IMG/VR virus record: IMGVR_UViG_3300048780_000186
Origin: an uncultured virus (IMG/VR IMGVR_UViG_3300048780_000186)
Taxonomy: Duplodnaviria; Heunggongvirae; Uroviricota; Caudoviricetes
Strand: one strand, 5' to 3'
Length of the DNA stretch: 64,000 bases
Both the position numbers and the translations under genes were made by a program. Under the pieces are notes generated by a model, which was not told the origin of the DNA, searched no databases, and was given only the letters and a program-made list of their open reading frames with translations. Shown here one piece after another: positions 1,602-42,000 of the stretch. Every line of letters begins with the position of its first letter. Positions within the stretch are counted from its first letter, which is position 1.

Positions 1602-1934
1602 TCACTTCACTCGCACCATCGTCGTTGTAGCGAGGGTGTCGTAGACGGTGTCCAGCATCTGTTTGGCTAAGGCTCGTCCATCCGGATCGGCCATCAGAGC
1701 CACAAACTCCGGACTCTCGTTCCACAGGCTGAAGACCAGCGCTTTGAGGCCGGCGATGTCGCCACGGTCGATGAACTCCGAGCACCGCTCGCAGGCAGCC
1801 CAGACACGCGTGTAGTTGTGAGCGGGGCCGACTTCCGGCCCGGACTCCACAAACATGCGCACCAAGATGTCCCGGCCCGCGTCATAATGTCGTGTGGCTA
1901 AGTGCTGGCTGCAGAAATCACAATTGTCTGGCAT
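1602..1934 (-). CDS. hypothetical protein with two CxxC pairs
   Basis: CDFC ... CERC; AAGGAG RBS. Confidence 0.7.
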   Translation of the reverse strand: MPDNCDFCSQHLATRHYDAGRDILVRMFVESGPEVGPAHNYTRVWAACERCSEFIDRGDIAGLKALVFSLWNESPEFVALMADPDGRALAKQMLDTVYDTLATTTMVRVK

Positions 1935-1949
1935 CGTGCTCCTTCAAAT

Positions 1950-2039
1950 TGGCAGGGGCGACAGGATTTGAACCTGCAGTGAACTTGCGTTCCGTGGCTT
2001 TGGAGACCACTGTGCCGAACCGGATTGCACATCACCCCT
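1950..2039 (-). tRNA. tRNA-Trp(CCA) with atypical long variable arm
   Basis: AGGGGTG/CGCCCCT acceptor, G73-CCA, D stem GTGC/GCAC, anticodon arm GTGGT-CTCCAAA-GCCAC, V arm GAAC-GCAA-GTTC, T arm GCAGG-TTCAAAT-CCTGT. Confidence 0.9.
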
Positions 2040-2388
2040 GTGCTGTCCACTCGTTGAGACAATGACGGCAGTTGTATTGTGCCGCGGTCTCGGTGGTCCG
2101 CACATCATTCTTGGTTGTCCGAATGGTTATCTCGACTGAATCTACATTCCAGCTGAGGCATTTCGGACACTCCACATGTGTTGGTAACGGTCGAAGCATC
2201 GAGCCGCCAGGAAACTCCTTGCGCGCCTCAATCTCTTCAACCACACTCTTGACTTCTGCTTCGGTGAAGGGACGGCCCTTCACCCGAGCAGCCAGAACAT
2301 CGGCCACTTTGAGCCAGAACGGAGCGTCCCATCGTCCATGGGAACTGAAGCTCACCCAGCTCATGGGAATCTCGCCTATTTGTGACAT
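2032..2388 (-). CDS. hypothetical protein with C-terminal Zn ribbon
   Basis: CPKC ... CRHC; stop overlaps the tRNA 5' end by 8 nt. Confidence 0.6.
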   Translation of the reverse strand: MSQIGEIPMSWVSFSSHGRWDAPFWLKVADVLAARVKGRPFTEAEVKSVVEEIEARKEFPGGSMLRPLPTHVECPKCLSWNVDSVEITIRTTKNDVRTTETAAQYNCRHCLNEWTAQG

Positions 2389-3305
2389 TTGGCCTTCGTG
2401 TCCACGGTCAGTTTCTTGAAGTCGTAGACCCAGATCTTCGACTCGACGGCATTCGGCGGCAATGGGAAAGTGATCCCAGCCTTGGCCTCGACGTTGGTCA
2501 GCATCGTGTGGACACTCTCCAGGTCATTGCCCAGATCGCCTGCCTGAGGAAACAGGAAGGCGACGTACTGGCCCGTCACGGTATCGACCACGATCTTGTA
2601 GAAACCCGTGGGCACATCCACTTGGTCGGCGCCGATCTTCTTGTCCGTGGCCACGTCATAGACTGGCCCGGCATAGATCAGATAGGTATGACCGCTCTCG
2701 TAGGCGCCGGCGCGAACCGCCGTCTCGAGCAGCTTCCACAACCCTCGGTTCAAACCCGGGCGCTGAGGCGTCATATTGGAGAGCATGAAGCTCTCCCGTT
2801 CCACATCCGGATCCCAGCGCATGTCGCCGTCCGGAGCAATGTGGCCCATATCGAATCCGTTGCCCACATAGTCAGCCGGCTTGGCGCGACCGCCCTCCGG
2901 GAGGGTATCGTCGGCAGCAAAGGCATTGCTGCGCACTTCGCAGCCAACCGCATGTTCAGGCGTCAGGGTGTAAGACACCCACTCCGGAAGCTTGGCCACC
3001 TCATCGCTGTATACCAGATAGGCTCGCCGGCAAATGTAGGCGTGCGTGCTGTCAGCCGGGAGCAATTCTCCCCTGATGGTCAGAGGTGTCCCATAGGGAA
3101 CGAACTGATGACAGGAGCTGAGGGGTTGCTCTACAGGAGCTGAGTAGACAGTGGGTGCGAAGATCAGGGCAACCATGGCAACGGCCACAGCAAAGCCAAG
3201 GCCGCGGCAGAGTCTCTTGACTTGGCTGAGGGCACATGGAAAAGCCTTCTCATGTCCACACTCAATGCACCGCAGCTTGGTGCGCTCGGGGGTAACGGGC
3301 TTCAT
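2376..3305 (-). CDS. DNA/RNA non-specific endonuclease (NucA/EndoG family), probably exported
   Basis: PEWVSYTL, DYVGNGFDMGHIAP, ESFMLSNMTPQ..GLNRGLWKLLE, VPTGFYKIV; hydrophobic signal-like segment FAVAVAMVALIFAPTVYS. Confidence 0.93.
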   Translation of the reverse strand: MKPVTPERTKLRCIECGHEKAFPCALSQVKRLCRGLGFAVAVAMVALIFAPTVYSAPVEQPLSSCHQFVPYGTPLTIRGELLPADSTHAYICRRAYLVYSDEVAKLPEWVSYTLTPEHAVGCEVRSNAFAADDTLPEGGRAKPADYVGNGFDMGHIAPDGDMRWDPDVERESFMLSNMTPQRPGLNRGLWKLLETAVRAGAYESGHTYLIYAGPVYDVATDKKIGADQVDVPTGFYKIVVDTVTGQYVAFLFPQAGDLGNDLESVHTMLTNVEAKAGITFPLPPNAVESKIWVYDFKKLTVDTKAKCHK

Positions 3306-3489
3306 GATGCCGCCACACACCCATGGGGTTGGGATAAACCCGAAGATCTTCACACGACAATCGCAAACGAATGCACTTCCAAGTTGCATTTGGCACTCAC
3401 TTTCTGGTTCAAATCTCCCGCCGGGAAACGGTTCACCGGGCTAACCCGGCGGGAGGGTGGCGTTGTCCTTGATCTTGGACGACCTGAGC

Positions 3490-3837
3490 TTACGCACCAG
3501 GACGGGATTCACAACCCGTATTCACGCCCGCTTGTGGCTCCGGCTGCACCGGAACAAATTTGCTTCCCGGCTCTCTCATCGCCGCGAGAATACGAGCAGC
3601 CCGTTCTGTATCAAAGCTCTCGGGACGGCCGTCGTAGCAGCCTGGAATTCTCCCAGTGCTTGTCCGATAGCAACGGCTTCTGATCTCGTCGGCCAATTTC
3701 CGATCCGCTTCAGTCGGCGTCACATCGCATTTAAGACAGCGGTCGTTGACAATCTGATTGCAGCCGCAGCGATCGCAGAACGCATAGCCATCAACTCGAT
3801 AGTTGATACCGTTCTTTAACGCATACTCGTCCTGCAT
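3490..3837 (-). CDS. hypothetical protein with CxxC pairs
   Basis: CDRC, CLKC; GGAG RBS before MQDEY. Confidence 0.6.
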   Translation of the reverse strand: MQDEYALKNGINYRVDGYAFCDRCGCNQIVNDRCLKCDVTPTEADRKLADEIRSRCYRTSTGRIPGCYDGRPESFDTERAARILAAMREPGSKFVPVQPEPQAGVNTGCESRPGA

Positions 3838-3851
3838 TGTTTCTCCATTCA

Positions 3852-3982
3852 TGGTGGGGCAAGGAGGACTTGAACCTCCATGCAACGCCGGTCATGCAGC
3901 CCGGTTGCGCCTATCCTGCAGGGTTGAGCACTGTTGCGCCGGATTATCGGTCCGGTGTGTCTACCAGTTTCACCATCGCCCC
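3852..3982 (-). tRNA. atypical 131-nt tRNA: Leu-type body, GAT anticodon, 59-nt variable region
   Basis: GGGGCGA/TTGCCCC acceptor, A73-CCA, D arm GTG-AAACTGGTAGA-CAC, anticodon arm CCGGA-CCGATAA-TCCGG, T arm GGAGG-TTCAAGT-CCTCC. Confidence 0.85.
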
Positions 3983-4046
3983 ATTTGAGGAGCCGAGCCC
4001 AGAAGGCTTATTAGGCCAGCCCGAGCCCGGCTCCGAAGGTTCCGAA

Positions 4047-4250
4047 ATTGGGTCACCTATCAAACCATCAGAGGGTTACGCTGCGTTCGCCACCCACAAT
4101 CGCCAGAATGCTGTGATTCACCGATTAGCTCCATGCGCGCTATGAATTGACAGCTCACTTCCTGGGCCGTCCGAAGACTTACCAGAGCGCGTACCACGGC
4201 TGGTTGGGGCATTCTCCCACCTCTGCTTCGTTGGTTCCGAAGAACCGATC
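4047..4250 (-). ncRNA. structured RNA of unknown family with a possible kissing loop
   Basis: Two C-UUCG-G hairpins, CAGAGG/CCTCTG long-range stem, CGCGCT/AGCGCG stem, loop AGAATGC complementary to downstream GCATTCT. Confidence 0.6.
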
Positions 4251-4252
4251 TC

Positions 4253-4339
4253 GTGCCAGGGGACGGATTTGTCACCGTCATCTCTCCGGCGGATTAACGC
4301 GTCTCCGCAGGCCGCTCTACTTCTTGAGCTACTCCCGAC
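4253..4339 (-). ncRNA. degenerate tRNA-like element
   Basis: D arm TA-GCTC-AAGAAGTA-GAGC, T-like arm GACGG-TGACAAAT-CCGTC, weak acceptor GTCGGGA/CCCTGGC, enlarged anticodon arm, no CCA. Confidence 0.55.
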
Positions 4340-4345
4340 TCAATA

Positions 4346-4611
4346 CTTCAACCGGTGTGCTGTTACGCTAAAGAGTCCATGTCTCGCCTTACCAGGCCAG
4401 CCGCAGTTTGCGTAGCAAGAAACGTGTGAACTGCGACCCGCGTGCCAATAGCGTTTGGCGTGAATGCAGCAATTCCCGGCGAGCAGCCGGCCTGCTTCAT
4501 CTCTGCACCCCGAACTGCCACGCATACCATTCCGATACGTCTCCGGCAGTCCCCGTGTCACGACTCACTCCTTGGAGGATGGCTGCTATCAAGCCAACCT
4601 TCCGGTTGAAG
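4346..4611 (-). ncRNA. 23S rRNA uL11-binding domain (H43/H44) mimic with a 198-nt insertion
   Basis: CCGGAAGGTTGGCTTGATAGCAGCCATCCTCCAAGGAGT-[198 nt]-GCGTAACAGCACACCGG aligns to E. coli 23S 1052-1107; closed by the 10-bp stem CTTCAACCGG/CCGGTTGAAG. Confidence 0.85.
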
Positions 4612-4617
4612 AACTTG

Positions 4618-4848
4618 TTAGGCCGCGGCGGTCAGCGTGACCGAGCTGATGGGGGTCGGCGCCGAAGCGGCGGGCTTGGCTGCCTTGGTTGCCTTGGCGG
4701 GCTTCGCTGCGGCCGCCGGCGCGTTGGCGGCGATCTTCTGGCTGGCGATCGCGGTAAAGAAGTTCAGCGCGGTCTGGGTTTGCTCGACGGTTGCGGTTGC
4801 AATGTATTCCACCAGGTACTGCTCAAAGCTCTTGGCTTTCTTTGCCAT
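4618..4848 (-). CDS. small Ala/Lys-rich protein
   Basis: 76 aa, GAGG RBS, histone-like AKPAKATKAAKPAA tail. Confidence 0.7.
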   Translation of the reverse strand: MAKKAKSFEQYLVEYIATATVEQTQTALNFFTAIASQKIAANAPAAAAKPAKATKAAKPAASAPTPISSVTLTAAA

Positions 4849-4871
4849 TCGAATTCCTCTTTCGGTTGGGT

Positions 4872-5185
4872 TAATGATTGAGCCACACAGGACTGTTGTT
4901 CCTGTCTCTTTCACCGTGTTCAGGATCGAGACTGACGGGATCCATCCTGTGTGGTCCAGTCATGAGCGTTTTGTTCCGCCGGACTCGCTCCCACCGGTCT
5001 TAATGCCCGATCCGAGTGCTAGGTGAAGCCGTACAGCATGGCTTCACTGGCACTGCGTCGTAGGCATCTTTTGGGGCATCACGGTTGAACTCGTGACATC
5101 CTCCACCACCTGATGTGTTTCATGGCATCAGGACCACTCCTTGGTTTTACTGGCCAAGAACAGGTTGCACCATCAGGGAAAACCC
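4872..5185 (-). ncRNA. hairpin-dense non-coding region (candidate ncRNA or leader)
   Basis: Consecutive stems, e.g. CCACACAGGA(4883)/TCCTGTGTGG(4945) and GTGAAGCC(5023)/GGCTTCAC(5040); no credible ORF; strand inferred from context. Confidence 0.5.
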
Positions 5186-5446
5186 TTATGGCGTTTGATC
5201 TGCCGTCAGTTTGACAAGATCAGTTGAACTACCAAAGCTCCCATCGGCGTTTCCTTGCCTGAATCGACGAACAGCAGATTGGCCAATTACACGCAGAAGG
5301 TTTGCTGATACTTGCAACTCCAGGATTTCTCCTTGGAGCCTGCGGATTTCGGTTCCTAATCGTGTCATCATCTGTTCGTGACAATCAGCGCAAACAGCCC
5401 GTCGCATTCGTCTCGACGAGCACTTTTGACATACGCACATGTTCAT
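5186..5446 (-). CDS. hypothetical protein (CxxC pairs plus coiled coil)
   Basis: CQKC, CADC, followed by a heptad-rich segment. Confidence 0.6.
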   Translation of the reverse strand: MNMCVCQKCSSRRMRRAVCADCHEQMMTRLGTEIRRLQGEILELQVSANLLRVIGQSAVRRFRQGNADGSFGSSTDLVKLTADQTP

Positions 5447-31142: not shown

Positions 31143-31481
31143 ATGAAGATCCAACCCATCAGCAACTACCTCATCATCAAGCTCGATCCGGCCGATGAGA
31201 ACATCGGCAACAGCAAGTTGATTGCACCGGGCCAGCTCAATGAGGCCTACAACGTCCCCAAGCGGATGGGCACCGTCCGTGCAGTTGGCCGCGGCCTCGT
31301 CACTGCAGGCGGCGAGATCATTCCTCCGCAGTTGAAGGCTGGCGATCGCGTCTACGTCCTGCAGACAAAGGTCGAGATCACTGTCGAGTACGATGGCGAA
31401 GACTGCCTCGTCCTGTCGGACGAGTCGCACGTCATCGGCATCATCACCGAGGAGTCTTCACTGATTCTGGGGGGCAAGTAA
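31143..31481 (+). CDS. groES: co-chaperonin GroES (Cpn10)
   Basis: MKIQPI.NYLII, GTVRAVGRG, G...PPQLKAGDRV, V.YDGE..LVL..E..VIGII. Confidence 0.92.
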   Translation: MKIQPISNYLIIKLDPADENIGNSKLIAPGQLNEAYNVPKRMGTVRAVGRGLVTAGGEIIPPQLKAGDRVYVLQTKVEITVEYDGEDCLVLSDESHVIGIITEESSLILGGK

Positions 31482-33285: not shown

Positions 33286-34455
33286 CTACGCCGCCGGAGC
33301 AGCGGGCAGGGCCGTCGCCACCCGGTTCTGCCCCTCACGCTTTGCCTTGTATAAAGCCCTGTCGGCTGCCAGGAGCAGGTCTGGAGGTGTCGTGATCGTT
33401 CCATCCGGCTGGGGCATTGTAGTGGCAACACCGATGCTTGCGGTCACCGACACCCAATCACCGGAATTCTTATTCGAGCGAAAGCGTAAGGTCTGGATGG
33501 CAGAGCGCACTTTTTCAGCGGCCCTGAACGCACCGAGCCCCTCTGTAGCGGGAAGGATGATTGCCATCTCATCCCCACCCCAGCGGCAGACAATATCTGA
33601 AGCGCGCACGGAGTCGCTGATGGCGGAAGCAACCGTGCACAGACAAACATCCCCGACAGGATGCCCGTACCGGTCATTGAACGGCTTGAAATGATCTATA
33701 TCGAGTAGCAGCAGGGACAGTTGCGATTCCTCGCGGACCGTTCGTTTCCATTCCCTTCTAAGGCTTTGGTCGAAAGCGCGACGATTCCAGAGCCCGGTGA
33801 GAGCGTCCGTCATGGCCAGGGCGGACAGTTTCTCCTCCAGCACCTTGCGGCCGGTGATGTCCCGCATGGACAAAACGTAGACGCGGGGCTCGCCGTTCAC
33901 CGGATCGCGCACACACCGGGTATTGATGCTGGTCCAAACCGGGGTTTGGTCCTTCTTCAACAGCCGCACTCTCACGTGGGAATAGGCAGCGCCATCCTCG
34001 GCGCTGCCCGTGGCAATATCTTCGAGGACCGCAAGGTCCTCGGAAAATACGAACTCGTCGAAATCTTTGCCGATCATCTCGCCGGGGTCCCAGTTGAGAG
34101 TGTCGAGAGCAGAAGGGGACACGTAGCGAATCGCATGATCCGCGCCAACGCTGCACAGAATATCGGCGCAGTTCTCTGCCAGGAACTTGTAATCGATCTC
34201 GACCGCGCCGCTCGGCTCGTGTTGGTCTTCAGGAGGAATCAACTCAACTCCTCGAACGAGGCCAGGGAAAAACGTTTGCGGTGCGCCCCCGCAAACGGCC
34301 CTTAAACCCGTGGTCGGGGAGTTGGAAAGCCGATACGACACGGCTCCTGTGACCTTTAGCCGCGAAGCCTGGACATACGTCACAGGCTCCCCGACCCAAA
34401 GGCAAGGGAGATCACACGTCTTGCGACGTGCCTTTGTCGTATTCGGGGTTTCCAC
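33286..34455 (-). CDS. PAS-GGDEF diguanylate cyclase
   Basis: PAS (YVSPS...W.P.E.IG), TDALTGLWNRR, DIDHFKPFNDRYGH..GD, RASD I-site, RWGGDEM, ADRALYKAK..G.NRV; start uncertain. Confidence 0.93.
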   Translation of the reverse strand: METPNTTKARRKTCDLPCLWVGEPVTYVQASRLKVTGAVSYRLSNSPTTGLRAVCGGAPQTFFPGLVRGVELIPPEDQHEPSGAVEIDYKFLAENCADILCSVGADHAIRYVSPSALDTLNWDPGEMIGKDFDEFVFSEDLAVLEDIATGSAEDGAAYSHVRVRLLKKDQTPVWTSINTRCVRDPVNGEPRVYVLSMRDITGRKVLEEKLSALAMTDALTGLWNRRAFDQSLRREWKRTVREESQLSLLLLDIDHFKPFNDRYGHPVGDVCLCTVASAISDSVRASDIVCRWGGDEMAIILPATEGLGAFRAAEKVRSAIQTLRFRSNKNSGDWVSVTASIGVATTMPQPDGTITTPPDLLLAADRALYKAKREGQNRVATALPAAPAA

Positions 34456-40854: not shown

Positions 40855-42000
40855 TTATGGCTTCGCCTGATGCGCCTCAAACCACTTCCGCGCTCGTTCC
40901 TGTTCGCGGGATAGGTCCGCGGGAGTCATGTGTGACGCGACTTCATCTCGCCGCCCCGCAGCGAGTGGGATTGGCGACTCGCGCGCGGCCGCTAGATTAA
41001 GCCAAAAGTAGGCTTCAGCGTAATCTTGGGGTACACCCTGACCATCCTTGTACCAAACCCCAAGCTTGTATTGCGCGAAATCGTCTCCCTGTTCAGCCGC
41101 CTTGCGATACCAAAAAACCGCTTGTGCGTAGTCCTGGGGTACACCCTCGCCGTCGCTGTACAAATGCCCAAGTATTGACTGCGCGCTACGGTTTCCCTGC
41201 TCAGCGGCCTTGCGGTACCAGGTTACGGCTTGAGCGTCGTCCTCGGGCACACCCGTCCCGCTGCTGTACAAATCCCCAAGCATCTCCTGCGCGTATGCGT
41301 CTCCCTTTTCAGCAGCCTTGCGATACCAGGTTGCGGCTTGACGATACCAAGTTGTGGCTTGAGCGTGGTCCTGGGGCACACCCTCCCCGTCCCTGTACAA
41401 ATCCCCAAGGCTCTTCTGCGCGTGAGCGTTGCCCTGTTCAGCAGCCTTGCGAAACCAGAGCGCAGACTGAGCGTAGTCTTGGGGCACACCGTCGCCTATG
41501 TAGTACAAGTCCCCTAGGCTGGCCTGCGCATCCGCATCTCCCTGATCGGCAGCCTTGCGATACCAGAGCGCAGCCTGAGCGTAGTTTCGGGGCACGCCTT
41601 GGCCCTCATCATACAAAGCCCCGAGCATCCATTGCGCGTCAGCGTCGCCTTGCTCAGCCGCCTTGCGAAACCAAGCTGCCGCTTGAGCGTAGTCCTGTGA
41701 CACACCTTTGCCGTATTCATACAAAGACCCAAGTCTCTCTTGCGCCGAGGCATCGCCCTGCTCAGCCGCCTTGCGAAACCAAGTCGCGGCTTGAGCGCGG
41801 TCCTGGGGCACACCCGTCCCGCTGCTGTACATCGCCGCCAGGACGTATTGCGCCGTAGCGTCGCCATTGGCTGCTTGCTGTTTGATGACGGCGACCCTCT
41901 TTTGATCAGATGTTGGCGACGCGCTCTGCTGTGCCCATGCGCCGGGCGCTGGGATGATTAGGGACGAAATAATCAGCCAAAGAAAGAATCGAGATTTCAT
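40855..42000 (-). CDS. exported Sel1-like repeat protein
   Basis: Signal peptide and about eight AQ..LG.LY..G.GVPQD..QA..W.RKAAEQG repeats. Confidence 0.95.
   Translation of the reverse strand: MKSRFFLWLIISSLIIPAPGAWAQQSASPTSDQKRVAVIKQQAANGDATAQYVLAAMYSSGTGVPQDRAQAATWFRKAAEQGDASAQERLGSLYEYGKGVSQDYAQAAAWFRKAAEQGDADAQWMLGALYDEGQGVPRNYAQAALWYRKAADQGDADAQASLGDLYYIGDGVPQDYAQSALWFRKAAEQGNAHAQKSLGDLYRDGEGVPQDHAQATTWYRQAATWYRKAAEKGDAYAQEMLGDLYSSGTGVPEDDAQAVTWYRKAAEQGNRSAQSILGHLYSDGEGVPQDYAQAVFWYRKAAEQGDDFAQYKLGVWYKDGQGVPQDYAEAYFWLNLAAARESPIPLAAGRRDEVASHMTPADLSREQERARKWFEAHQAKP

What the first reader, a model, noticed from the sequence alone, without database searches (positions are those of the whole stretch)
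3852..3982. 131-nt tRNA with a Leu-type body, Ile (GAU) anticodon, C33 and a 59-nt variable arm
Seen: intact acceptor, D, anticodon and T arms with encoded CCA and A73. The D arm (GTG-AAACTGGTAGA-CAC) is of the class II/Leu type. The anticodon loop is CC-GAU-AA, so the near-invariant U33 is C. The variable region is 59 nt (GCAAC/GTTGC base stem, inner TGCAG/CTGCA). Known: bacterial tRNA-Ile has a short variable loop, and bacterial LeuRS largely ignores the anticodon. Inference: it could put Leu at AUC/AUU codons, be a non-decoding decoy for anticodon nucleases or synthetases, or carry an excised intervening sequence.
Basis: partly seen in the sequence, partly recalled or inferred. Interest (0 to 1): 0.75.

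Follow-up and report, generated by a model that had tools for sequence, protein, structure and literature searches.

The report
Phage tRNA with giant extra arm
A large virus of peat-soil bacteria carries an intact 131-base transfer RNA gene with a leucine-type body, an isoleucine-reading loop of a kind seen in many phages, and an extra arm about three times the usual size, so which amino acid it carries is an open, testable question.

Summary
Window 3852-3982, minus strand, is a complete tRNA cloverleaf (Rfam tRNA 47.4 bits against a cut-off of 29). It has an encoded A73-CCA, a 3-bp D stem with an 11-nt D loop, the anticodon loop CCGAUAA (C33, GAU) and a 59-nt variable region.

It is not an assembly error. 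10 further assemblies carry it, and contigs from four RNA libraries hold it with the insert in place.

- C33 with GAU is a recurrent phage trait. 46 of 80 fetched viral loci hold an ARAGORN tRNA-Ile(GAU) over a CCGAUAA loop, and 34 of 35 neighbouring non-Ile tRNAs keep U33.
- The gene is a mosaic. Its D arm matches a related phage's tRNA-Leu at 14 of 17 bases. Its anticodon arm matches a class I phage tRNA-Ile at 18 of 18.
- The extra arm folds as a three-way junction and contains a 14-nt direct repeat, which hints at growth by duplication.

Best reading (confidence 0.45): a working AUC/AUU decoder shaped to escape attack on host tRNA-Ile. Published E. coli rules favour charging by LeuRS over IleRS.

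Comparing codons between two strains argues against wholesale Ile-to-Leu reassignment. Splicing found no support. Function remains inferred.

The parts
3852..3982 (-). 131-nt tRNA gene: class II (Leu-type) body, anticodon GAU with C33, 59-nt variable region, A73 and encoded CCA
   Evidence: Rfam RF00005 at 47.4 bits, model positions 1-71 of 71. Sequence read. Identical or nearly identical in G001, G002 and 8 metagenome contigs.
3957..3973 (-). D arm: 3-bp stem GUG/CAC and 11-nt loop AAACUGGUAGA, of Leu-type architecture
   Evidence: 14 of 17 bases identical, without gaps, to the D arm of the ARAGORN-called tRNA-Leu(GAG) of the related record G001.
3939..3955 (-). Anticodon arm CCGGA-CCGAUAA-UCCGG. 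C33 is at 3949 and the anticodon GAU at 3946-3948.
   Evidence: With the preceding base it is 18 of 18 identical to the arm of a class I tRNA that scores 63.1 bits in viral locus L008. The same loop occurs in 46 ARAGORN tRNA-Ile(gat) calls among 80 fetched viral loci.
3880..3938 (-). 59-nt variable region. Base stem at 3933-3937 / 3882-3886, hairpin A at 3907-3931, hairpin B at 3887-3905.
   Evidence: Constrained and free ViennaRNA folds give a three-way junction. The only two polymorphic sites of the gene lie here, at 3911 and 3905. One turns a U.G pair into U-A. The other turns an A.C mismatch into G-C.
3898..3940 (-). Two copies of a 14-nt direct repeat (3898-3911 and 3927-3940), starts 29 nt apart, spanning the 3' strand of the anticodon stem and the variable arm
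   Evidence: the repeat finder reports 12 of 14 bases identical. Reading this as a trace of duplication is my inference.
3852..3879 (-). T arm (GGAGG-UUCAAGU-CCUCC), 3' acceptor strand, A73 and CCA
   Evidence: No segregating site among 11 sequences.
3989..4034 (-). 46-nt hairpin of about 15 bp, ending 6 nt upstream of the tRNA
   Evidence: RNA fold of 3975-4062. Role unknown. No U tract follows it, and the terminator scan did not call it.
3490..3837 (-). Downstream ORF (115 aa, no family match). A GGAG Shine-Dalgarno motif lies between the tRNA's 3' end and the likely start ATG at 3835-3837; 14 nt separate the tRNA end from that ATG.
   Evidence: Sequence, ORF list, no PHROG or Pfam hit. Third-codon-position excess is weak: 9 of 18 segregating sites.

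Best explanation
SHOWN. This is an intact tRNA-shaped gene of a large phage found in peat and permafrost. It is a mosaic of three parts:
- a class II, leucine-type acceptor/D/T framework
- the anticodon arm typical of a widespread group of phage tRNA-Ile(GAU) genes that carry C instead of the near-universal U at position 33
- a 59-nt branched variable arm
Contigs from RNA libraries carry the extra arm in place.

INFERRED. It is a working elongator tRNA that reads AUC and AUU, which make up 4.7% of the phage codons counted. The phage supplies it as a replacement for host tRNA-Ile(GAU).

Two features would make it a poor substrate for enzymes that recognise the host tRNA. C33 alters the nucleotide beside known cleavage sites in tRNA-Ile(GAU), and in E. 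coli C33 blocks t6A37 formation on another tRNA. The class II body with its bulky arm changes the D-stem/anticodon-stem surface that such nucleases clamp.

The amino acid it carries is unresolved. By E. coli rules all LeuRS determinants readable from sequence are present. Only the anticodon-loop and A73 determinants of IleRS are present. I therefore put charging at about 55:45 in favour of Leu, with Ile second.

The extra arm probably grew by an internal duplication. It is tolerated because this arm points away from the ribosome and synthetase contact surfaces.
For: - Real tRNA. Rfam 47.4 bits against a cut-off of 29, full model. All four stems are intact and A73-CCA is encoded.
- Not an artefact. 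The same gene is in G001, G002 and 8 of 80 fetched metagenome loci. 14 DNA runs from 10 studies hold at least 98% of the sampled words of 3400-4400, though each is marked as a possible source of the DNA.
- No decay. 0 of 74 core positions segregate among 11 sequences, against 35 of 700 flank positions. By my arithmetic, Poisson P(0 | 3.7) is about 0.025.
- Insert retained. Contigs from 4 of 4 RNA libraries cover the gene with its insert and no joints were reported. One contig (X16, 3757-4065) spans the whole gene.
- The C33-GAU loop is a selected phage trait. In a viral scan, 46 of 80 fetched loci carry an ARAGORN tRNA-Ile(gat) over the CCGAUAA pattern. Of the Ile(GAT) tRNAs placed, 45 of 46 have C33, while 34 of 35 other tRNAs in the same loci have U33. 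The trait occurs in cultured Aeromonas phages, where the gene is annotated tRNA-Ile.
- Arm identity. 18 of 18 bases match L008's class I tRNA.
- Leu framework. The D arm matches G001's tRNA-Leu(GAG) at 14 of 17 bases. The Leu identity rules come from PMC9976931 section 12.
- Precedents from papers. HepS cleaves tRNA-Ile(GAT) as a secondary target (PMC13043305, passages). CdiA-CT EC536 cuts tRNA-Ile(GAU) between C32 and U33 and clamps the D and anticodon stems (PMC11724271, passages). E. coli TsaBCDE cannot modify a U33C initiator tRNA (PMC8887486, passages). Phage tRNAs are proposed to escape anticodon nucleases through loop mutations (PMC10264068, part 1 of the text). tRNAs with hairpin aptamers at the tip of the variable arm remained active in E. 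coli reporter assays (PMC7590224, passages).
- Codon supply. AUC 302, AUU 107 and AUA 17 of 8756 codons counted.
Against: - No data show a mature 131-nt RNA, aminoacylation or ribosome use. Contigs from RNA libraries cannot show ends or levels, and they may come from DNA carried over into the library.
- U33 supports the U-turn needed for ribosome binding (PMC13276492, passages), so C33 may lower decoding.
- 'V-Spinach' tRNAs, which carry an aptamer inserted in the V-loop, showed only marginal activity (PMC7590224).
- All relatives are 95-99.6% identical, so the constraint test is weak. The insert itself evolves at about the flank rate (2 of 57 against 5.0%).
- Fold energy is no better than that of shuffled sequence.
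- Three minor IleRS stem determinants are not met. Here the pairs are G4-C69, G12-C23 and G29-C41, where E. coli tRNA-Ile has C4-G69, U12-G23 as printed in the review (U12-A23 by my recall) and C29-G41. C33 may also prevent t6A37, a strong IleRS determinant.
- If the tRNA is charged with Leu it would mistranslate 4.7% of codons. The strain comparison shows AUY and CUY are not interchangeable (4 changes against about 12.5 expected).
- The host and its nucleases are unknown.
Confidence: 0.45

Rival explanations
1. It is a non-decoding tRNA-like element. The RNA folds like a tRNA but is not used on the ribosome. It could act as a sponge or decoy for a host factor such as a tRNA nuclease, a modification enzyme or a synthetase. 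Alternatively it could serve as an RNase P / 3'-processing 'punctuation' mark that sets the 5' end of the downstream mRNA.
For: - C33 removes the U-turn nucleotide (PMC13276492 passages).
- The arm is far larger than that of the two ordinary tRNAs of the related record G001 (74 and 87 nt). A review gives about 70-100 bases for tRNAs in general (PMC4033280 passages).
- The gene is packed into an operon. A GGAG motif and an ATG follow the CCA within 14 nt. The second odd tRNA at 1950-2039 has the same layout, with AAGGAG and an ATG 15 nt after its CCA.
- A third, degenerate tRNA-like element in G001 and G002 is also followed by GGAG and an ATG.
- The insert is not demonstrably constrained in sequence.
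Against: - Neither a processing mark nor a generic decoy needs a perfect 5-bp anticodon stem and a loop identical to that of working-looking phage tRNA-Ile genes, with U36-A37-A38 kept.
- Neither needs the full set of elbow and Leu-identity nucleotides.
- Class I C33 tRNA-Ile genes sit in ordinary phage tRNA clusters, which suggests the loop is compatible with use as a tRNA.
Confidence: 0.25
2. It is a recently disabled tRNA gene. A duplication of about 29 nt inflated the variable arm of a class II phage tRNA, and the gene persists only because too little time has passed for it to decay.
For: - A 14-nt direct repeat (12 of 14 bases) with starts 29 nt apart lies inside the gene.
- All known carriers are 95-99.6% identical, so there has been little time for decay to show.
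- The insert changes at the flank rate.
- ARAGORN misses the gene.
Against: - 0 of 74 core sites segregate against 5.0% in the flanks (P about 0.025, my arithmetic).
- Both insert polymorphisms keep or improve the predicted pairing, and the commoner haplotype is 3.7 kcal/mol more stable.
- All stems, the T and D loops and the CCA are intact.
- The C33 loop is the selected phage type and not a random lesion.
Confidence: 0.15
3. It is an intron-containing tRNA. The extra sequence would be removed after transcription. One version would leave a class II tRNA with a shorter arm. ARAGORN's alternative model is a tRNA-Cys(GCA) with a 51-nt intron between positions 32 and 33.
For: - ARAGORN with its intron option returns the Cys(GCA) model.
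- Hairpin B has a loop containing CUGCAUG, which includes a U33-like U.
- Other phage Leu-type tRNA genes do carry 33-51-nt inserts, though these lie in the anticodon loop.
Against: - Contigs from 4 of 4 RNA libraries carry the insert and no joint was reported. Contigs can miss rare forms.
- No intron or ribozyme family matched at E up to 1.
- The Cys model needs an A.A mismatch in the anticodon stem and a pyrimidine at position 37. It also has A73, where CysRS uses U73 (PMC9976931 passages).
- The model discards a perfect anticodon arm that is 18 of 18 identical to a phage tRNA-Ile arm.
- I know of no bacterial machinery that splices at these positions (my knowledge, not from a call).
Confidence: 0.05

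Closest known systems
Phage class I tRNA-Ile(GAU) genes with C33 (for example the gene annotated tRNA-Ile in Aeromonas phage 25, DQ529280, and relatives)
   Same: The 7-nt anticodon loop CCGAUAA is identical. The whole arm is identical to that of viral locus L008. Both are encoded by phages.
   Different: Those genes are 74-77-nt class I tRNAs with a 4-bp D stem and a 4-5-nt variable loop. This one has a Leu-type class II framework and a 59-nt variable region. My two searches on C33 and on tRNA-Ile nucleases listed no paper on the C33 trait in phage tRNA-Ile.
Bacterial and phage tRNA-Leu (class II)
   Same: D-arm architecture, A14, A15-U48, G18G19, A20a, the T loop and A73.
   Different: The anticodon is GAU, not a Leu anticodon. 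The variable region is 59 nt, against the short variable arm of the related phage's 87-nt tRNA-Leu(GAG). Position 33 is C.
Nematode nev-tRNAs (class II, Leu-type tRNAs with Gly or Ile anticodons that are leucylated in vitro; PMC3333845 and PMC4300185, listings and abstracts; review passages in PMC4033280)
   Same: A Leu-type long-arm body is combined with the anticodon of a class I amino acid, including Ile. The same question arises: does the tRNA put Leu at a non-Leu codon?
   Different: nev-tRNAs are eukaryotic, carry the anticodon UAU or CCC, mostly match rare codons and have arms of normal size. Here the gene is from a phage, reads the commonest Ile codons, has C33 and has an arm several times larger.
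allo-tRNAs and (8/4) tRNAs of bacteria and phages (PMC5389517, passages)
   Same: They are long-arm tRNAs with anticodons that do not fit the body. They were found in soil metagenomes and phages, and are proposed to be missense suppressors.
   Different: They are defined by 8/4 or 9/3 acceptor/T branches and serine identity. This gene is 7/5 with A73. The neighbouring 90-nt tRNA(CCA) at 1950-2039 is drawn as 8/4 by ARAGORN and is the closer match to that group.
Engineered tRNAs with aptamers in the variable arm (PMC7590224, passages)
   Same: Extra hairpins are grafted onto the variable arm of a class II chassis. Variants with small hairpin aptamers stayed active in E. coli reporter assays.
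   Different: They are artificial. 'V-Spinach' tRNAs, with a Baby Spinach aptamer in the V-loop, had only marginal activity.

Membership tests
tRNA (Rfam RF00005) | Covariance-model score above the curated gathering score, across the full model | tested here: met
   47.4 bits against 29, model positions 1-71 of 71.
tRNA (Rfam RF00005) | Near-invariant U33 | tested here: not met
   C at 3949 in all 11 sequences.
Bacterial tRNA-Leu | E. coli-type LeuRS determinants: A73, A14, A15-U48, G18G19, A20a and the T-loop partners U54, U55, C56, A58 | tested here: met
   Read from the sequence against PMC9976931 section 12. My position numbering follows the D-arm alignment to G001's tRNA-Leu.
Bacterial tRNA-Leu | A Leu anticodon (NAG or NAA) | tested here: not met
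   The anticodon is GAU.
Bacterial tRNA-Leu | Leucylation by LeuRS | not testable with these tools
   Needs an aminoacylation assay.
Bacterial tRNA-Ile(GAU) | Anticodon GAU, A37, A38 (36-UAA-38) and A73 | tested here: met
   Loop CCGAUAA and A73. Rules from PMC9976931 section 11 and PMC13276492.
Bacterial tRNA-Ile(GAU) | Class I body with the minor determinants C4-G69, the 12-23 pair (printed as U12-G23 in the review; U12-A23 by my recall), C29-G41 and G16 | tested here: not met
   G4-C69, G12-C23, G29-C41 and C16, on a class II body with a 59-nt variable region.
Phage C33-type tRNA-Ile(GAU) | Anticodon loop CCGAUAA on a 5-bp stem | tested here: met
   18 of 18 bases identical to the L008 arm. 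The loop is shared with 45 placed Ile(GAT) tRNAs.
Phage C33-type tRNA-Ile(GAU) | Class I cloverleaf of about 74-77 nt | tested here: not met
   131 nt with a class II D arm.
allo-tRNA / (8/4) tRNA | 8/4 or 9/3 acceptor/T branch | tested here: not met
   7-bp acceptor stem and 5-bp T stem, with U8 unpaired.
Intron-containing tRNA | A spliced form exists, or a recognisable self-splicing or BHB element is present | tested here: not met
   No joints in contigs from 4 RNA libraries. No Rfam intron or ribozyme match at E up to 1. I saw no bulge-helix-bulge motif at the junctions by eye. Raw small-RNA reads were not available.
nev-tRNA | Class II Leu-type body with a non-Leu, non-Ser anticodon | tested here: met
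   This is a functional resemblance only; the family is defined as nematode-specific (PMC4033280).

The most novel reading that the evidence does not exclude
The phage uses an anticodon-blind synthetase to get round attacks on isoleucine decoding. In this reading the tRNA is charged with leucine by host LeuRS. It reads the phage's commonest Ile codons when host tRNA-Ile(GAU), or Ile-tRNA-Ile, is cleaved or blocked, so the phage accepts a near-isosteric Ile-to-Leu substitution in place of stalled ribosomes. C33 and the branched arm keep nucleases, the t6A machinery and IleRS away from it. The neighbouring 8/4 long-arm tRNA(CCA) could be a second member of the same 'armoured tRNA' strategy.
Probability: 0.15. 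Interest if true: 0.85.

Novelty: new variant of a known kind. Interest (0 to 1): 0.6.

Why it matters
Phage tRNAs are now seen as counter-measures to tRNA-cleaving defences. Published examples change a few loop bases. This gene suggests two further routes.

The first is a position-33 change that recurs in dozens of phage tRNA-Ile genes. The papers my searches listed do not discuss it.

The second is a wholesale change of scaffold, to a class II body with a very large extra arm.

If the RNA is charged by LeuRS, it would be a natural bacterial-virus counterpart of the nematode nev-tRNAs. It would also be a case of deliberate codon ambiguity during infection.

If it is charged by IleRS, it shows that IleRS and the ribosome tolerate both C33 and a 59-nt arm. 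That would be useful for tRNA engineering. Either outcome can be tested with ordinary aminoacylation and reporter assays.

Tried and rejected
- Default ARAGORN finds no gene here. With the intron option it gives tRNA-Cys(GCA) with a 51-nt intron. I rejected that model for the reasons given under the intron rival.
- The Rfam search at E up to 1 over 1800-4200 found only the two tRNAs. Nothing matched the insert.
- blastn of 3700-4200 against 50,697 phage records gave no match.
- Looking for more distant carriers:
  - The exact-arm scan gave 5 viral loci. One is the G002 copy, one is a class I tRNA (L008) and 3 are not tRNAs.
  - Leu D arm plus CCGAUAA gave 2 loci, 1 of them true.
  - A relaxed D arm gave 10 loci, 1 of them true.
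  - The neighbouring nuclease protein found only G002.
  - In the metagenome scan, 8 of the 80 fetched loci were true, all 95-99.6% identical to the window.
  - The genome-contig scan for a Leu D arm, a GAU loop and class II spacing gave 1 hit, a different element in a MAG.
- The insert is single-copy in G001 and G002, so it is not a repeated mobile element there.
- No class Ia synthetase (PF00133), CCA-adding enzyme (PF01743) or RtcB (PF01139) was found in G001 or G002. Both records are incomplete (58% and 83%).
- The host could not be identified. The window's own assembly and the 452-kb and 141-kb metagenome contigs are not held.
- Fold z-scores are not significant.
- The promoter and terminator scan gave nothing at the gene.
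- I looked in the extra arm for a copy of an Ile or Leu anticodon hairpin, a lead from earlier scan notes. There are only two CUGCA motifs and a GAUA. No convincing second anticodon arm is present.
- Parts of 1800-5300 have no RNA-library cover in some runs. That is uninformative.
Full report
OBSERVATION

The feature lies on the minus strand at 3852-3982. Rfam's tRNA model matches it end to end (positions 1-71 of 71) at 47.4 bits against a gathering score of 29, with E 5.1e-07 for the whole 64-kb window. A 57-nt insertion is placed in the variable region. Default ARAGORN misses the gene.

Read 5'->3', it has:
- a 7-bp acceptor stem
- U8 and G9
- a 3-bp D stem (GUG/CAC) with the 11-nt loop AAACUGGUAGA
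- a perfect 5-bp anticodon stem with the loop CCGAUAA (C32, C33, G34 A35 U36, A37, A38)
- 59 nt up to the T stem
- T stem GGAGG/CCUCC with the loop UUCAAGU
- A73 and an encoded CCA

The minimum-energy fold of the arm is instead a three-way junction. It has the base stem GCAAC/GUUGC, hairpin A (a 5-bp stem with a 15-nt loop) and hairpin B (a 4-5-bp stem with a 9-nt loop). Fold energies are no better than those of shuffled sequence (z -0.57 and +0.86).

CONTEXT

The window is part of a large phage.
- Only 10 of 96 greedy ORFs have a Pfam hit. These include a DNA/RNA non-specific endonuclease 463 nt downstream, thioredoxin, a DNA-ligase OB domain, Cpn10, a PAS-GGDEF protein and a Sel1-repeat protein.
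- PHROGs adds a DprA-like protein, an HNH endonuclease and an ATP-dependent DNA ligase.
- The nearest held records are IMG/VR 'provirus' records of 124 kb (G001, 58% complete) and 178 kb (G002, 83% complete).
- DNA runs that hold the region are peat metagenomes.
- The host is unknown. The window's assembly and the 452-kb and 141-kb metagenome contigs that carry the gene are not held.

IS IT REAL DNA AND IS THE INSERT KEPT?

The gene is identical in G001. In G002 it differs at two positions.

Of the other 72 loci, 71 are chance matches and 1 is a different element. IMG/VR records derive from JGI metagenomes, so some of these 11 sequences may not be independent.

Three haplotypes occur at two sites: G/A in 4 sequences, G/G in 4 and A/G in 3. 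One low-coverage contig of the A/G group also has a 1-nt deletion.

Contigs from four metatranscriptome libraries (four studies) cover the gene with the insert present, and no joints were reported. X16 record 12 spans 3757-4065. All four carry the G allele at 3905. Such contigs may derive from DNA carried over into the library, and they cannot show RNA ends. They argue against obligatory removal of the insert but do not prove expression.

SELECTION

All relatives are 95.4-99.6% identical over about 3 kb, so power is low. Among the 11 sequences:
- the 74 canonical tRNA positions have 0 segregating sites
- the 57-nt insert has 2
- 700 flanking positions have 35, or 5.0%

By my arithmetic, the Poisson probability of 0 when 3.7 are expected is about 0.025. 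The core therefore looks constrained, while the insert changes at about the flank rate.

Both insert changes fit the three-way-junction fold. One turns a U.G pair into U-A in hairpin A. The other turns an A.C mismatch into G-C at the base of hairpin B, which stabilises the arm by 3.7 kcal/mol.

C33 IS NOT A ONE-OFF DEFECT

A viral locus (L008) holds a strong class I tRNA (63.1 bits) with exactly the same 17-nt anticodon arm.

I scanned viral contigs for a common class I D-arm end followed by CCGAUAA. Of the 80 loci fetched, 47 contain at least one ARAGORN tRNA, and 46 have a tRNA-Ile(gat) over the pattern. Of the tRNAs I could place, 45 of 46 Ile(GAT) have C33. In the same loci, 34 of 35 tRNAs of other specificities have U33; the exception is one Asn(GUU) (2 of 83 calls could not be placed).

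The pattern itself selects for C33, so this shows recurrence and specificity. It does not give a frequency.

One such gene is 100% identical across cultured Aeromonas phages (phage 25, phiAS4 and others). It is annotated tRNA-Ile in those records that annotate it. Acceptor stems differ widely among these genes, so the loop is kept on many backbones.

My searches on C33 and U33 with bacteriophage and on tRNA-Ile anticodon nucleases listed no paper about this trait. The part of the eLife paper on phage tRNA loop mutations that I read (part 1 of 3) does not mention it, and a term search of that paper for 'U33' or 'position 33' found nothing.

WHAT C33 COULD DO (FROM PAPERS)

- U33 is conserved for the U-turn needed in ribosome binding. 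36-UAA-38 is the strict t6A determinant (PMC13276492, passages).
- E. coli TsaBCDE could not modify a U33C initiator tRNA, and the authors call C33 an anti-determinant (PMC8887486, passages).
- t6A37 is described as a strong determinant for bacterial-type IleRS (PMC9976931 section 11).
- tRNA-Ile(GAU) is a target of known nucleases. HepS cleaves it as a secondary target (PMC13043305, passages). CdiA-CT EC536 cuts between C32 and U33 while clamping the D and anticodon stems (PMC11724271, passages).

C33 therefore plausibly changes how such enzymes see the loop. This is inference.

THE BODY IS LEU-TYPE

The D arm is 14 of 17 identical, with the same spacing, to the tRNA-Leu(GAG) of G001. It is 11-12 of 17 identical to class I C33 tRNA-Ile genes, and those alignments need gaps.

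All E. coli LeuRS determinants that can be read from sequence are present: A73, A14, A15-U48, G18G19, A20a and the T-loop partners. The anticodon and the sequence or fold of the long arm are reported not to matter for leucylation (PMC9976931 section 12).

Of the IleRS set, the anticodon, A37, A38 and A73 are present. The three minor stem pairs and G16 are not. SerRS is a further, weaker candidate, because the tRNA has G2-C71 and a long arm but A73 (and my recollection).

Cellular genomes offer no source for this combination. A scan of 185,579 species genomes for a Leu D arm, C[C/U]GAUAA and class II spacing found one locus, and it is a different element. That scan's gap range would not have found a 59-nt arm.

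DOES THE PHAGE READ AUY AS LEU?

I compared window ORFs with G002. I kept ORFs of at least 100 aa and dropped 27 whose differences were not third-position-rich, which left 8756 codons. There were 530 synonymous and 198 non-synonymous single changes.

AUY<->CUY changes number 4 in 741 codons. The neutral A<->C rate at four-fold sites (41 of 2422) predicts about 12.5. The synonymous control AGR<->CGR gives 8 in 279. By my arithmetic, P(4 or fewer | 12.5) is about 0.005.

Ile and Leu codons are therefore not interchangeable in this phage. This argues against reassignment but not against partial or conditional misreading. AUC and AUU together are 4.7% of the codons counted, so the tRNA matches abundant codons.

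ORIGIN OF THE ARM

The insert is single-copy in G001 and G002. No Rfam family matches it.

A 14-nt direct repeat (12 of 14 identical) lies within the gene, with starts 29 nt apart. It begins in the 3' strand of the anticodon stem. Removing one 29-nt unit would leave a single long hairpin arm of about 30 nt. I take this as a hint of growth by duplication. I estimated by hand that such a repeat would arise by chance about 3% of the time.

OTHER tRNAs OF THE PHAGE

- Window 1950-2039 (minus strand) holds a 90-nt tRNA(CCA) at 41.7 bits. ARAGORN draws it with an 8-bp acceptor stem, a 4-bp T stem, a long variable arm with a GCAA loop, A1-U72 and G73.
- G001 and G002 also carry, outside the window, a sub-threshold tRNA-like element with a CUGCAAA loop and an extra arm (25.8 and 21 bits).
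- G001 has ordinary tRNA-Gln and tRNA-Leu genes.
- G002 has an RNA-ligase-family gene (PF09414, 67.9 bits).
- No class Ia synthetase, CCA-adding enzyme or RtcB was found in either record.

Long extra arms on tRNAs for class I amino acids thus seem to be a habit of this phage.

VERDICT

The anatomy is confirmed, and the gene is intact and retained.

I think it most likely (0.45) that this is a working AUC/AUU decoder. It combines the phage-typical C33 Ile loop with a Leu-type scaffold and an enlarged arm, and it helps translation continue when host tRNA-Ile(GAU) is attacked. The amino acid it carries is open: LeuRS is somewhat more likely than IleRS by the published rules.

The rivals are:
- a non-decoding tRNA-like element (0.25)
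- a recently disabled gene (0.15)
- a spliced precursor (0.05)

The closest known things are the C33 class I phage tRNA-Ile genes, ordinary tRNA-Leu, and, in function, the nematode nev-tRNAs. It is a member of none of these. I class it as a new variant of a known kind.

Earlier notes of this scan, on other genomes, report phage suppressor tRNAs with a second anticodon hairpin in the variable arm, and a giant-virus tRNA-like gene with a Leu-type body and C33. I checked for a second Ile or Leu anticodon hairpin here and did not find one.

Noticed in passing
window 1950-2039 (-): A 90-nt tRNA(CCA) at 41.7 bits. ARAGORN draws it as 8/4 (8-bp acceptor stem, 4-bp T stem) with a long variable arm (GCAA loop), A1-U72 and G73. 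In shape it resembles the (8/4) long-arm tRNAs described from phages and soil bacteria. The stop codon of the upstream ORF lies inside its 5' strand, and an AAGGAG motif with an ATG follows its CCA.
   Followed up: partly
viral loci L153-L232: Class I phage tRNA-Ile(GAU) genes with C33 (loop CCGAUAA) are common. 46 of 80 fetched loci have one, on many different acceptor stems, including cultured Aeromonas phages. 34 of 35 neighbouring tRNAs of other specificities keep U33. My two searches on the topic listed no paper about this.
   Followed up: partly
viral loci L016, L018, L021, L023, L024, L028, L030, L031, L034, L035: Phage genes with a Leu-type D arm and T arm carry inserts of about 33-50 nt in the anticodon-loop region. 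ARAGORN with its intron option calls L023 and L031 as tRNA-Leu(taa) with a 49-nt insert and L024 as tRNA-Leu(caa) with a 47-nt insert. Its calls for the others are inconsistent.
   Followed up: no
L056 and L152: A class II tRNA-like gene with a Leu-type D arm, the loop CUGAUAA (U33, GAU), G73 and no encoded CCA. A hairpin appears to be inserted in its T loop. It occurs on a 2.5-kb metagenome contig and in a MAG labelled 'uncultured archaeon'. Rfam's tRNA model does not reach E 0.1 on it.
   Followed up: no
L005 (G001:68713-68782) and L015 (G002:121126-121203): A sub-threshold tRNA-like element (25.8 and 21 bits) with the loop CUGCAAA, an extra arm and a weak acceptor stem. It is followed by GGAG and an ATG, and is conserved between the two records.
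   Followed up: partly
window 3989-4034 (-): A 46-nt hairpin of about 15 bp ends 6 nt upstream of the tRNA. Two linked polymorphisms lie in its stem. No U tract follows it.
   Followed up: partly
window about 4137-4580: This segment upstream of the tRNA is replaced by different sequence in metagenome contigs L086 and L113, so it is a variable cassette between conserved flanks.
   Followed up: no
window 33286-34455 (-), 40855-42000 (-), 31143-31481 (+): The phage encodes a PAS-GGDEF diguanylate cyclase, a protein with 8 Sel1 repeats and a Cpn10 co-chaperonin.
   Followed up: no
G002:2028-2555 (outside the window): An RNA_ligase family (PF09414) gene at 67.9 bits in the related record. This is possibly RNA-repair capacity.
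   Followed up: no
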